Made by a program: the position numbers. Shown in pieces: positions 12,001 through 15,000 of a DNA stretch of 64,000 nucleotides. Origin of the DNA: Trypanosoma brucei. Taxonomy: Eukaryota. The DNA lies in assembly GCA_000002445.1 (NCBI GenBank), contig CH464491.1:4800001-4864000 (forward strand), given 5' to 3'. Position 1 is the stretch's first letter; every line of letters begins with the position of its first letter.

Positions 12001-15000
12001 AAGATACTGAGGTGGCGGCGACTATTCGTTTGTCTTTTTGGCGTCATCGTTAAGTGTGAAGAACTTGACAGACGCAGTGAAGCTGGCTCCAGTTTGAGCG
12101 CTTTTGACCGGACATTGGTAGGCATGATGGAATACAACTGAGGGAAAGGCGATGGAAATACTTTAGGTACAGAACTAAGAGGAAGGTTGTGAAATCGAAA
12201 GGCGGTATGCTTTTGTGGGGTCGCAGTTGTTCTTCTGTAGTGAAGTACGTTGACAAACACTAAGGGAAGGGGGATGTAGGCTTCGGTAGGATCAAATACT
12301 ACAATGTTATTAGATGCACCTTCGATGGCTAGTTCCCTCTCCAGAGTATTTTAATTATATGTGCCGCCGCAAAGAGTGTTTCTTTGCTCTTTTGAGTACA
12401 CCTCTGAGTTCTACAACTGTTTGCTCCACTAAGCAACGTGGTATTTTTCCTAACGTTTATGTCGTCCCCTCTTCTTCCAGGTAGTGTTGTAGTCGTTTGG
12501 GTATTGAAAAATCACGACACGATGGAGTTACGGAATAGATCTGTGTTTTATGCAATAAATACCTAACCCCCTTGGGTTGAGGTCCTGTAGGTTGTTACAT
12601 CTGTCCCCGTTGTCGTCACGGACAAAAGGTATCTTTTGACTCATTGAAAGTTAATTCCAGGTCGTTGACGCAGTCGACTTAACAGTGAATGGTTGAGACG
12701 GGGCAATATAAATAATCTTCAGAAAAAATTTGTCACAATGGTAAGATCTGTCGGTATTAATGGTGCCTTAATGCGCGCTTACTTGGAGTCGGAAAAAGTT
12801 GTGACGTAAGTATAGGCTATCCCGGGGCTTGGCCATCGATGCGATATAGGGAGAAGCAATTTTGTGTGAAGGGTATGGACGAATTTCCGGCGAAAGTTTT
12901 TGCGAAGAAATGTACACACCATGGATTTCAATCTATGAGAAACCGATACTGTTGGGTTTTTGTTTCATTGTGGATTATTTACATTATTAACTAGATTATA
13001 AATGAGGTGGTCGTAGTCACGTGAGTTTTTTTAATGTTGTCAGTAACTTCTTTACCGCTAGAGCCACATGTATGTGGTGTCATCTGATTTTGTTTGGTGA
13101 AATGTGTGTGCTTTTAGGGAACCCACTAAAGGGATGCGCAGGATGCTGCCCTTTTTAACATGAAATACAATAAATGGCACAATTCTTGTTTTCCTTTTAC
13201 ACCAAAGAGAAGTGCCATAGGGAGTAAGTTTTTGAAACGCCCATCCCAACTAACACCCTCCGCATTTTGAGCGGATGGAGGGCTAAAGACCCTTTCACCA
13301 CCTTCCCTATCTTCAAACTAACTTTCCCGTGGTTATGAAAGACTCAGATTTTTCAGCAAGAACACATACGATGCAAACGATGGGTGTGGCAATCACAACA
13401 AAAGTAAAAACATTGTTTTCCCGCTCTTCTTTTCACTCAATACAGGAAGGGAAGGTACCAACTATTTATATATGCCTAAAATACACTTGAAGAAGACTAG
13501 GATAGGAGTGTGGTTGAGTTTGTCTTTTCTTCTTATAAGTTTTAGTCTGGCACGTGACTGTACGCTGGTGGACGATTATTACGGCAAAAATGTTCCTGAG
13601 TCCGTTTGCTATCTCAGCTGCCTTTCGAATGCACTGAACAAATTGTACAACGATGGAGAAGAGAAACTATTTGTAAATGAGGAAGTATACGCAGATGCAT
13701 CTCGTATATTGGATGACATGGAAGGGGAAACAGCTGAATGTGTTAAATACCTTAGTGTTATCAGCGGTGTAATGGAAGGGAAACATGATAAATTGGAAAA
13801 ACTTATATCTTACGGAAATGAAATGGGAGACCTTGTAGCCAAGGTGGGTGGATTATTCGCAGATGTAAATGAAAGTGTAAGGGCAATGAGGGAAGTATTG
13901 CCATCTACTCTCATAACAGCAAATAAATACTACACGGCTATTTCTGAGATTGTTAGGACAGTTTGGGACGATGTTAAGGCGGTGAAGAGCGACGATGAGG
14001 AAGTCTTACAGTGTAGAAACGGAAAAATTATAAGTACAGGGGAGTTTTCAGTCAAGTGTAGCGCCCATACGTGTCCACTTGGAGTCAATGTGACAGAGAG
14101 TACCCTTAAAAAGTACAAGGATGGCTGCCTTGAAATAAATGTTATGACTGAATCTGGTCAGGTAAGCAAGTGCTTTAATTTACCAAGAAATAACTTGTAT
14201 ATAAGCGGTGCAAGAATTAATTCGAGTGGAGTGTTGGAATGGTCTCAAAATGATTCCGCTTTTTTTCGACTTATAGTCAAAGTTCAGGACATCTTCGCAC
14301 CCCTCATCGCACCTTTTTCAGCCGGGAAACCGCCCTCTGTACTTCTTACAAAGATGACAAATATCACTTCCCTTTACTCTCACTTTAACAAAGTTCACAA
14401 CAACTTTACTTCGCTGCTGCGCGATACCAATATCACTGTGAATGCGGACAATACTAATACTAATTCTACCATTTGACAGATATGTTTAGATACATTTTCT
14501 CCTGTTTACTAATGTTCTACTGATGATTTTGCATACATGCTTTTGTGCGAGTTCGCACGGGTACACGTACTTAACAATTTTTGTTGTTATTGGCATGCCA
14601 TGTTTTCATGAAAAAAATCTGTTCTAAACCTTTTGTAGTGTAAGTCTAATTACGCCTCGAACAATGGAATACATGCTATTCATCTGTGTGCCAAGTAAGA
14701 CATCTTTCTGGTAGTTTACCTTTCATAGCTTTTCTTTTATCGTAGGAGTTGAAAAACATGTAGGGAATGAGGGTGAAGTACAGGCGAGGATAGCGATTAC
14801 TCAGTTGCCGCGTTGCGATGTTGGATCTGGGGAACGCGACATAGGTGTGATTCGCCAGTTGTCGCCCTTTACTAAATTTTGTAGGCGCACCACCGTTTCT
14901 TTTCTCTTGTTTGTATCTGCCTCAGCTATTCTTAGGGTTTCTGCTGATTCTGAAAGTTTGTCTATCCAGTTTTCTGTTTTCACAGCGGCTGCTGCCTTGT

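What the first reader, a model, noticed from the sequence alone, without database searches (positions are those of the whole stretch)
13472..14476. Only intact non-VSG gene: plus-strand secreted glycoprotein at the edge of the array
A 334-aa ORF has a clear signal peptide and numerous N-glycosylation sequons clustered at the C-terminus. It has no TM or GPI tail in frame. It is on the strand opposite to the VSG array and lies next to a strand switch. Its size and properties fit ESAG-type secreted or surface proteins, but I cannot assign the family from memory. Intact ESAG-like genes inside silent arrays are candidates for developmentally regulated expression.
Basis: partly seen in the sequence, partly recalled or inferred. 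Interest (0 to 1): 0.5.

Follow-up and report, generated by a model that had tools for sequence, protein, structure and literature searches.

The report
Known ESAG1 gene beside VSG array
The open reading frame is a full-length, already annotated copy of the Trypanosoma brucei ESAG1 gene family that sits outside an expression site, next to a silent VSG array, so it is an ordinary and known feature of this genome.

Summary
The 334-codon ORF at 13472-14476 (+) is real and is not a chance ORF. It matches Pfam ESAG1 (PF03238) over the whole model (E 3.8e-113). It is 100% identical to an annotated T. brucei brucei TREU927 protein (XP_829771.1 / Q380X2, "ESAG protein, putative"). It is the only intact gene in the window that is neither a VSG nor a retroelement; the others are a VR pseudogene, a glycosyltransferase pseudogene and a broken ingi element. 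There are no 70-bp repeats on its strand and no telomere repeats, so it is a non-expression-site ("GRESAG-type") copy. Such copies are already described. "Secreted or surface" is not supported for this family: a tagged expression-site ESAG1 did not reach the cell surface (PMC4587319). Developmental regulation could not be tested. One side lead emerged. AlphaFold models of two family members give a long three-helix bundle with a Cys-rich insert. The best Foldseek PDB hits are all African-trypanosome surface receptors (HpHbR, ISG65, FHR, GARP), but they are weak (E 2e-3 to 5e-2). Verdict: already known, low interest.

The parts
13413..13438 (+). Polypyrimidine tract (23 of 26 pyrimidines), candidate trans-splicing signal
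   Evidence: Read from the sequence and counted. The position relative to the AG is close to the -14 to -43 range reported for T. brucei major splice sites (PMC2916883). Use as a splice signal is inferred, not shown.
13444..13445 (+). First AG downstream of the tract, candidate spliced-leader acceptor; it would give a 26-nt 5'UTR
   Evidence: Inferred only; no transcript data were available.
13472..14476 (+). ESAG1-family coding sequence, 334 aa plus stop; identical to TREU927 XP_829771.1 / EAN80659.1 / UniProt Q380X2
   Evidence: ORF. Pfam PF03238 at 377 bits against a cut-off of 27, model positions 1-226 of 227. 100% identity and coverage to P0001. dN/dS of 0.10-0.28 against four paralogues.
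13472..13552 (+). Signal-peptide-like N-terminus (residues 1-27; predicted cleavage after S-L-A)
   Evidence: Hydropathy maximum and -3/-1 rule. Low-confidence helix at residues 10-24 in the model. This copy has 6 extra residues here compared with its relatives.
13592..13984 (+). Two long predicted helices (residues 41-100 and 105-171) forming a hairpin; high confidence (pLDDT mostly 85-98)
   Evidence: AlphaFold2 model mf9fc390c344c. The same elements appear in the model of BES-type ESAG1 117A.
13985..14332 (+). Cys-rich insert between helices 2 and 3 (residues 172-287) with conserved C181, C196, C201, C219 and C234; mixed confidence
14333..14425 (+). Third bundle helix (residues 288-318) carrying the conserved sequons N297 and N311
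14477..14859 (+). 3' flank homologous to the 3' flanks of ESAG1 paralogues (68-71% identity over 346-383 nt); candidate 3'UTR
   Evidence: blastn against L003 and L005. The 5' flank is not alignable to the paralogues.
14801..16300 (-). Context: truncated, frameshifted VSG N-terminal-domain pseudogene facing the ESAG1 gene (convergent). It has no C-terminal domain and no 3'UTR 16-mer
   Evidence: ORFs. VSG_B model positions 278-350 of 352 in ORF 14801-15127. No 16-mer nearby. The same arrangement is found in T. equiperdum contig L001.
5653..6664 (+). Context: VSG-related (VR) pseudogene on the same strand, upstream, with two frameshifts

Best explanation
The ORF is a bona fide, full-length member of the T. 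brucei ESAG1 family located outside a VSG expression site. It is a 'gene related to ESAG' copy, already annotated in TREU927 as XP_829771.1. It is the last gene of a + strand block (VR pseudogene ... ESAG1) that converges on a - strand silent VSG array.

Shown: family membership, intactness, conserved cysteines and sequons, a hydrophilic C-terminus, the convergent context, and the absence of expression-site hallmarks.

Inferred protein mechanism: the N-terminal signal sequence takes the protein into the ER. There it is N-glycosylated (conserved sites N133, N297, N311 plus copy-specific ones) and disulphide-bonded (8 family-conserved Cys). It folds into an elongated three-helix bundle with a Cys-rich insert between helices 2 and 3. 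With no TM segment or GPI signal, it is a soluble lumenal or peripherally attached glycoprotein of the endomembrane system, not a coat or surface protein. This agrees with the published non-surface localisation of tagged ESAG1.

Inferred locus behaviour: the copy has no promoter of its own. It can be expressed only at a low level, by Pol II running through the + strand block and trans-splicing at AG 13444-5. Alternatively it contributes sequence to expression-site ESAG1 copies by gene conversion. Purifying selection (dN/dS about 0.1-0.3) argues that the coding capacity is used one way or the other.

Confidence by step: identity about 0.97; protein mechanism about 0.6; some expression from this locus about 0.5.
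For: - Pfam ESAG1 at E 3.8e-113, full model length.
- 100% identical to annotated TREU927 protein P0001 = XP_829771.1 on a 5.26-Mb contig.
- 50-76% identity over at least 90% of the length to 38 ESAG1 proteins, including the classic 117A and 221A expression-site proteins. 32 columns are invariant and 8 cysteines are conserved.
- Signal-like N-terminus, 8 sequons and a hydrophilic C-terminus.
- All 70-bp repeat cores and VSG 3' 16-mers in the window are on the - strand, and there are no telomere repeats.
- The 3' flank is conserved with paralogues for about 350-380 nt.
- Pairwise dN/dS of 0.10-0.28 against four paralogues, the same range as among those paralogues.
- Under random substitution the ORF would stay open with P about 0.11 after 70 changes and 0.04 after 100.
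- AF2 model with pLDDT 78.4 and pTM 0.70, helices at 41-100, 105-171 and 288-318.
- Literature: ESAG1 is the last ESAG before the 70-bp repeats, is dispensable in the active expression site, belongs to a dispersed family, and recombines in very short tracts, mean 90 bp (PMC2567434). Non-ES copies are catalogued and the family is specific to T. brucei (PMC3605285). Tagged ESAG1 is not at the cell surface (PMC4587319).
Against: - No transcript, splice-site or protein data for this copy could be consulted.
- Subtelomeric arrays are described as promoter-less and thought to be non-expressed (PMC11229358).
- The 5' flank is not conserved with the paralogues, so the splice signal is copy-specific and unverified.
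- dS is near saturation (0.9-2.4), and pairwise dN/dS cannot isolate this copy's own branch.
- The T. equiperdum 'orthologue' is 99.94% identical across 3.3 kb, flanks included, so its intactness carries no information on constraint.
- This copy has lost the family-conserved sequon at residue 75 (N to D) and carries an extra, unpaired Cys90.
- No signal-peptide or GPI predictor was run; the calls rest on hydropathy and the -3/-1 rule.
Confidence: 0.9

Rival explanations
1. One reading: an actively used, developmentally regulated (for example stumpy- or metacyclic-stage) secreted or surface glycoprotein, expressed from this array-edge locus.
For: Intact ORF with signal sequence, sequons and no anchor. 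A plausible polypyrimidine tract and AG acceptor. A conserved 3' flank. dN/dS below 1. Database names among the homologues include a 'metacyclic expression site-associated ESAG1' (P0017), so family members are linked to more than one stage. From my own recollection, not checked here: Morgan et al. 1996 (J Biol Chem) and Carruthers et al. 1996 (Mol Biochem Parasitol) reported ESAG1 transcripts from non-expression-site copies. PMC2567434 cites these two papers for ESAG1 dispensability in the active BES and for family dispersal.
Against: Tagged ESAG1 does not reach the cell surface and is absent from the surface proteome (PMC4587319). According to that paper, stumpy-specific expression is documented for ESAG9, not ESAG1. 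Subtelomeric arrays are regarded as non-transcribed (PMC11229358). The papers I could read on slender, stumpy and procyclic transcriptomes do not single out ESAG1. Nothing in the sequence is specific to stage regulation.
Confidence: 0.15
2. A silent archive copy: never expressed in situ, kept only as a sequence donor for segmental gene conversion into expression-site ESAG1 genes, in the way array VSGs are used.
For: It lies in promoter-less subtelomeric context, hard against a VSG array. ESAG1 has the shortest mean recombination tracts of all ESAGs (90 bp), with significant PHI statistics for both ES and non-ES copies (PMC2567434; PMC3605285 Table 2). The homology block shared with paralogues covers the CDS plus about 0.35 kb of 3' flank.
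Against: Table 2 of PMC3605285 lists ES and non-ES ESAG1 as reciprocally monophyletic, which argues against free exchange between the two pools. In my neighbour-joining tree this copy pairs with another chromosomal TREU927 copy at 76% identity rather than with expression-site copies. A pure donor need not stay open: the VSG donors around it are mostly pseudogenes.
Confidence: 0.3
3. A relic that is intact only by chance or youth: a recent duplicate dropped into decaying subtelomeric DNA that has not yet acquired a disabling mutation.
For: Every other non-VSG coding sequence in the window is broken: VR, glycosyltransferase and ingi. The facing VSG is truncated where the ESAG1 3' flank ends, which suggests a rearrangement junction at about 14.80-14.86 kb. 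The copy has lost a conserved sequon and gained an odd cysteine.
Against: The nearest known paralogue is only 76% identical in protein, so the duplication is not recent. dN/dS of 0.10-0.28 is the same as between other family members. Simulated neutral substitution closes the ORF with high probability at that level of divergence. All 32 family-invariant residues are retained.
Confidence: 0.12

Closest known systems
Expression-site ESAG1 proteins of T. brucei (for example VSG expression site-associated protein 117A, P0013; 221A, P0040)
   Same: Same Pfam family (PF03238). Colinear over 92-95% of the length at 50-61% identity. Same 8 conserved cysteines, the same conserved sequons (N133, N297, N311), the same hydrophilic '...N-S-T-I' C-terminus and the same predicted helix order.
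   Different: This copy is not in an expression site. There are no 70-bp repeats or VSG downstream on the same strand and no telomere repeats. It has 6 extra N-terminal and 2 extra C-terminal residues, lacks the sequon at residue 75 and has an extra Cys90.
TREU927 chromosomal ESAG1 paralogue XP_001219214.1 (P0002, on the 1.06-Mb contig)
   Same: Closest relative: 76% identity over 96% of the length. It forms a pair with the window copy in the neighbour-joining tree. It is also annotated on a megabase chromosome rather than in a cloned expression site.
   Different: 24% of residues differ. The signal peptide is unrelated in sequence. Its DNA could not be retrieved, so flanks and branch-specific selection could not be compared.
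African-trypanosome three-helix-bundle surface receptors: HpHbR (4e40, 4wjg, 4x0j), factor H receptor (6xz6), GARP (2y44), ISG65 (7pi6), metacyclic invariant surface protein (5vtl)
ESAG7 (anchorless subunit of the ESAG6/7 transferrin receptor)
   Different: Different family with no sequence similarity. ESAG7 reaches the flagellar pocket by pairing with GPI-anchored ESAG6, whereas no partner is known for ESAG1. This is an analogy only.
ESAG9 (stumpy-enriched, released ESAG family)
   Different: The window protein hits only Pfam ESAG1, and all 43 homologues are ESAG1. There is no evidence of any relationship to ESAG9.

Membership tests
ESAG1 (Pfam PF03238) | Score above the Pfam gathering threshold over the whole domain model | tested here: met
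   377 bits against a cut-off of 27, E 3.8e-113, model positions 1-226 of 227, residues 101-330.
ESAG1 (Pfam PF03238) | Full-length colinearity with characterised ESAG1 proteins, including the part N-terminal to the Pfam domain | tested here: met
   39-sequence alignment A1: 50-76% identity, 32 invariant columns, first invariant residue D35.
ESAG1 (Pfam PF03238) | Family pattern of 8 conserved cysteines and conserved N-glycosylation sequons | tested here: met
   C30, C46, C50, C181, C196, C201, C219 and C234 are all present. Sequons at 133, 297 and 311 are present. The sequon at residue 75 (33 of 39 members) is lost here.
ESAG1 (Pfam PF03238) | N-terminal signal sequence and a hydrophilic C-terminus without GPI or TM signal | tested here: met
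   Hydropathy and -3/-1 rule. The mean KD of the C-terminal 20 residues ranges from -0.82 to 0.62 across the family. No dedicated predictor was available.
Expression-site-associated gene in the strict, positional sense | Located in a telomeric VSG expression site, upstream of 70-bp repeats and a VSG on the same strand | tested here: not met
   There is no 70-bp repeat core on the + strand; all 6 hits are on the - strand. There are no telomere repeats. The gene converges on a truncated - strand VSG. It is therefore a non-ES (GRESAG-type) family member.
Expression-site-associated gene in the strict, positional sense | Co-transcription with the active VSG by RNA polymerase I in bloodstream forms | not testable with these tools
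   No transcript or ChIP data were available.
Trypanosome three-helix-bundle surface receptor superfamily (HpHbR / GARP / FHR / ISG-like) | Elongated three-helix bundle with an insert ('head') between helices 2 and 3 | tested here: met
   This rests on prediction only. Helices at 41-100, 105-171 and 288-318 with an insert at 172-287; pLDDT 78.4, pTM 0.70. The pattern is reproduced for 117A.
Trypanosome three-helix-bundle surface receptor superfamily (HpHbR / GARP / FHR / ISG-like) | Statistically significant structural similarity to solved members | tested here: inconclusive
Trypanosome three-helix-bundle surface receptor superfamily (HpHbR / GARP / FHR / ISG-like) | Detectable sequence or profile homology to members | tested here: not met
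   The ESAG1 profile against PDB sequences gives 0 hits at E <= 10. Against 1.84 billion representatives it gives 4 hits, all ESAG1-like.
Trypanosome three-helix-bundle surface receptor superfamily (HpHbR / GARP / FHR / ISG-like) | Membrane attachment (GPI or TM) and exposure at the surface or flagellar pocket | tested here: not met
   There is no C-terminal hydrophobic segment. The literature reports tagged ESAG1 as not at the surface (PMC4587319).

The most novel reading that the evidence does not exclude
ESAG1, so far described as having no homology beyond T. brucei and as having possibly arisen de novo within the expression site (PMC3605285), may instead be a highly diverged, anchorless member of the three-helix-bundle receptor superfamily of African trypanosomes (HpHbR / GARP / factor H receptor / ISG65). 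If so, ESAG1 proteins, including chromosomal copies like this one, would be candidate ligand-binding proteins. They would act in the lumen of the endocytic or secretory system, or through an unidentified anchored partner, by analogy with ESAG7 and ESAG6. I found no paper in the searchable library linking ESAG1 to a helical bundle. However, public AlphaFold models of T. brucei proteins exist, so the observation may well have been made elsewhere.
Probability: 0.4. Interest if true: 0.45.

Novelty: already known. Interest (0 to 1): 0.15.

Why it matters
For the finding as given, very little. It also shows that the gene is already annotated in the reference genome, and that non-expression-site ESAG1 copies are a documented feature of T. 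brucei subtelomeres.

Two modest points have some value. First, the window shows a clean example of an array edge: a + strand block (VR pseudogene, then ESAG1) converges within about 0.35 kb on a truncated - strand VSG. This is a convenient place to ask where Pol II stops at core/subtelomere boundaries. Second, the function of ESAG1 is still unknown after 40 years. The predicted receptor-like three-helix-bundle fold, if confirmed, would replace the 'de novo origin' idea and suggest concrete ligand-binding experiments.

Tried and rejected
- Sequence search of the protein and of the family profile against PDB sequences found nothing, even at E <= 10.
- The afdb50 fold library was not available, so relatives among predicted structures of other trypanosome species could not be sought.
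- The look-up of encoding contigs has no record of the TREU927 genes P0001 and P0002. The DNA of the nearest paralogue, and therefore a branch-specific dN/dS, could not be obtained.
- The T. equiperdum 'orthologue' (L001) is 99.94% identical over 3,340 bp, with 2 mismatches. It is useless as a test of constraint.
- I considered that the + strand block might be a decayed expression site (ESAG2 - ESAG11 - ESAG1). Rejected: the VSG_B-like ORF at 5763-6665 belongs to the ~342-aa VSG-related (VR) family, not ESAG2. There are no + strand 70-bp repeats.
- I considered that the 319-aa ORF at 32950-33909 might be a second intact non-VSG gene. It is a glycosyltransferase pseudogene whose N-terminal pieces lie in two other frames.
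- Rfam scan of the window: no hits. Tandem-repeat and short-repeat scans around the gene found only chance-level matches.
- Literature searches for this accession, for ESAG1 with 'bundle' or AlphaFold and for stage-specific expression of ESAG1 gave nothing specific. Many hits were ESAG10/11/12 matched by word start.
- Neighbouring genes at paralogous loci L003-L005 had no Pfam hits, so I could not tell whether the 'ESAG1 facing a VSG' arrangement recurs.
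Full report
OBSERVATION

An in-frame stop lies upstream at 13319.

The N-terminus has four basic residues followed by the most hydrophobic stretch of the protein (Kyte-Doolittle 19-residue maximum 1.57, window starting at residue 9). An S-L-A|R motif fits the -3/-1 rule for cleavage after residue 27.

There are eight N-x-S/T sequons, at residues 133, 206, 250, 260, 297, 311, 320 and 331. Composition-preserving shuffles give 3.9 +/- 1.7 (P = 0.024). Four of the eight lie in the last 38 residues.

The C-terminal 25 residues are hydrophilic (mean KD -0.66), and no second segment reaches transmembrane-like hydropathy.

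Upstream there is a 26-nt tract with 23 pyrimidines (13413-13438), followed by the first AG at 13444-13445, 26 nt before the ATG. This is close to the geometry reported for major T. brucei trans-splice sites (PMC2916883).

IDENTITY

The protein matches Pfam PF03238 (ESAG1) over the complete model, with 377 bits against a curated cut-off of 27 (E 3.8e-113).

A search of 5.8 billion clustered proteins returned 43 hits, all named ESAG1 or ESAG and all from T. brucei subspecies and T. equiperdum. The best hit, P0001, is 100% identical over 100% of the length. It is the annotated T. brucei brucei TREU927 protein XP_829771.1 / EAN80659.1 / UniProt Q380X2, 'expression site-associated gene (ESAG) protein, putative', on a 5.26-Mb contig. 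The window therefore comes from the reference genome, and the gene is already called.

The next relative is another TREU927 chromosomal copy (P0002, 76% identity). Classic expression-site proteins 117A and 221A are 61% and 50% identical.

In a 39-sequence alignment the window copy keeps all 32 invariant residues, the eight family-conserved cysteines and the three best-conserved sequons (N133, N297, N311). It differs in four ways:
- six extra N-terminal residues;
- two extra C-terminal residues;
- loss of the sequon at residue 75;
- an extra Cys90.

All members end in a hydrophilic '...N-x-T-I' tail, so the lack of a TM or GPI signal is a family trait and not a truncation.

CONTEXT

Downstream of the gene everything is on the - strand:
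- VSG_B and A-type VSG domain ORFs between 14.8 and 62.4 kb;
- six matches to the 70-bp-repeat core;
- five matches to the VSG 3'UTR 16-mer.

There are no telomere repeats in the window and no 70-bp repeat on the + strand. The gene is thus not in the ESAG1 - 70-bp repeats - VSG configuration that defines its position in bloodstream expression sites (PMC2567434).

The first - strand element (about 14.8-16.3 kb) is a frameshifted VSG N-terminal domain. It ends at the end of the domain model (positions 278-350 of 352 in ORF 14801-15127) and has no C-terminal domain or 16-mer.

The 3' flank of the ESAG1 gene is homologous to the 3' flanks of two paralogues for 346-383 nt (68-71% identity), reaching window position about 14822-14859. 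The 5' flank is not alignable. The ESAG1 homology block (CDS plus about 0.35 kb) therefore abuts the truncated VSG, which suggests an old rearrangement junction at a convergent strand switch.

Upstream on the + strand lies a VSG-related (VR) pseudogene with two frameshifts (5653-6664). ESAG1 is thus the last gene of a + strand block and not a lone gene on the 'wrong' strand.

The other non-VSG coding remnants are all broken:
- an ingi-type retroelement split into RT, RNase H and zinc-finger ORFs (41799-45973);
- a UDP-Gal/UDP-GlcNAc-dependent glycosyltransferase relic with its N-terminus in two other frames (32950-33997, - strand).

The title claim 'only intact non-VSG gene' stands.

IS THE COPY UNDER CONSTRAINT?

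The T. equiperdum OVI contig CZPT02000560.1 (L001) carries the same gene (333/334 residues) and the same facing VSG fragment. However, it is 99.94% identical over all 3,340 bp, so it has no power as a test.

I retrieved DNA for four paralogues (L002-L005). Nei-Gojobori dN/dS between the window copy and each of them is 0.10-0.28. The range among the paralogues themselves is 0.24-0.29. dS is close to saturation at 0.8-2.4.

In a simple simulation of random substitutions, the ORF stays open with probability 0.11 after 70 changes and 0.04 after 100. With the nearest paralogue 24% different in protein, a long neutral history is unlikely, though it is not excluded.

WHAT THE PROTEIN PROBABLY IS

AlphaFold2 with the family alignment gives mean pLDDT 78.4 and pTM 0.70. 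The model has two very long helices (41-100, 105-171; pLDDT mostly 85-98), a lower-confidence Cys-rich insert (172-287) and a third helix (288-318) that carries N297 and N311. A second model, for the expression-site protein 117A, shows the same order of elements (pLDDT 72.9).

Foldseek against 350,542 PDB chains put only African-trypanosome surface proteins in the first nine places for the window copy and the first ten for 117A. These are the T. congolense and T. brucei haptoglobin-haemoglobin receptors, ISG65, the metacyclic invariant surface protein 5vtl, the factor H receptor and GARP. Probabilities reach 1.00, but E-values are only 2e-3 to 5e-2 and TM-scores 0.25-0.57.

There is no sequence support. 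The ESAG1 profile finds no PDB sequence at E <= 10. Among 1.84 billion representative proteins it finds only four ESAG1-like sequences. This agrees with the published statement that ESAG1 has no homology beyond T. brucei and may have arisen de novo (PMC3605285).

I therefore treat the receptor-like fold as a lead and not a membership: architecture met (by prediction), significance inconclusive, sequence homology and membrane anchoring not met.

MECHANISM

Shown: family membership and sequence features.

Inferred for the protein:
- ER entry through the signal sequence;
- N-glycosylation and four disulphides;
- an anchorless elongated helical-bundle glycoprotein residing in the endomembrane lumen or attached peripherally.

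This fits the one direct localisation I could read: ESAG1 tagged in the active expression site was absent from the surface proteome and did not localise to the cell surface (PMC4587319). 'Secreted or surface' is thus not supported for the family, although release was not specifically excluded.

Inferred for the locus:
- There is no promoter of its own.
- Subtelomeric arrays are regarded as non-transcribed (PMC11229358).
- Expression, if any, would come from Pol II running through the + strand block with trans-splicing at AG 13444-5.
- Alternatively the copy contributes sequence by gene conversion. ESAG1 has the shortest recombination tracts of all ESAGs (PMC2567434).
- ES and non-ES copies are listed as reciprocally monophyletic (PMC3605285 Table 2), which limits the conversion idea.

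From memory only, not verified here: Carruthers et al. 1996 and Morgan et al. 1996 reported that expression-site ESAG1 can be disrupted without phenotype and that other family members are transcribed. PMC2567434 cites them for dispensability and for family dispersal.

COMPARISON AND NOVELTY

The gene is a member of ESAG1 by every sequence criterion. It is not 'expression-site-associated' by position. [quoted passage not shown] The stumpy-stage idea fits ESAG9, not ESAG1. Nothing about the copy is unusual for the family beyond small terminal extensions and one lost sequon.

VERDICT

- Observation: confirmed.
- Interpretation: partly supported. ESAG-type is correct; secreted/surface and developmental regulation are unsupported or untested.
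- Novelty: already known.
- Interest: 0.15.

The only item with some wider interest is the predicted HpHbR/GARP-like three-helix-bundle fold for the ESAG1 family. I rate it at about 0.4 probability of reflecting true common ancestry, and it may already be apparent from public AlphaFold models.

Noticed in passing
window 32950-33997 (- strand): Pseudogene of a UDP-Gal/UDP-GlcNAc-dependent glycosyltransferase (hexosyltransferase, PF01762-type relatives) embedded in the VSG array. The main frame is 33918-33001, 59-67% identical to TREU927 copies, and the N-terminal pieces lie in two other frames. Pfam itself gave no hit for the 319-aa ORF.
   Followed up: yes
window 5653-6664 (+ strand): VSG-related (VR) family pseudogene (relatives are about 342 aa), 90% identical to 'VSG 1125.5249' over its central part and interrupted by two frameshifts. 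It is the only VSG-like sequence on the + strand.
   Followed up: yes
window 41799-45973 (+ strand): An ingi-type non-LTR retroelement inserted in the - strand array, broken into at least three ORFs: RVT_1 (752 aa), RNase_H (222 aa) and C2H2 zinc fingers (437 aa). Its GC content is about 0.52 against about 0.40 in the surroundings.
   Followed up: partly
window 50710-52224 (- strand); also 24542-25456 (- strand): A 504-aa ATG ORF with a signal-peptide-like N-terminus and a Cys-rich C-terminal region, but no Pfam hit even at E <= 1, and a C-terminal tail that does not look like a clean GPI signal. Together with the 304-aa ORF at 24542-25456 it has weak similarity to other - strand segments (57.0-58.3 kb). 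These are probably VSGs whose N-terminal domains the Pfam models miss.
   Followed up: partly
window about 14800-14860: The ESAG1 3'-flank homology (shared with paralogues) ends inside the last ORF of a VSG N-terminal-domain fragment that lacks its C-terminal domain and 3'UTR. This is an apparent rearrangement junction exactly at the convergent strand switch. The same junction is present in T. equiperdum (L001).
   Followed up: partly
P0060 (146 aa, source not shown): The only hit of the ESAG1 profile outside the recognised family among 1.84 billion representative proteins (E 3.5e-14). It is a short, divergent ESAG1-like fragment covering profile positions 184-315. Its organism is unknown.
   Followed up: no
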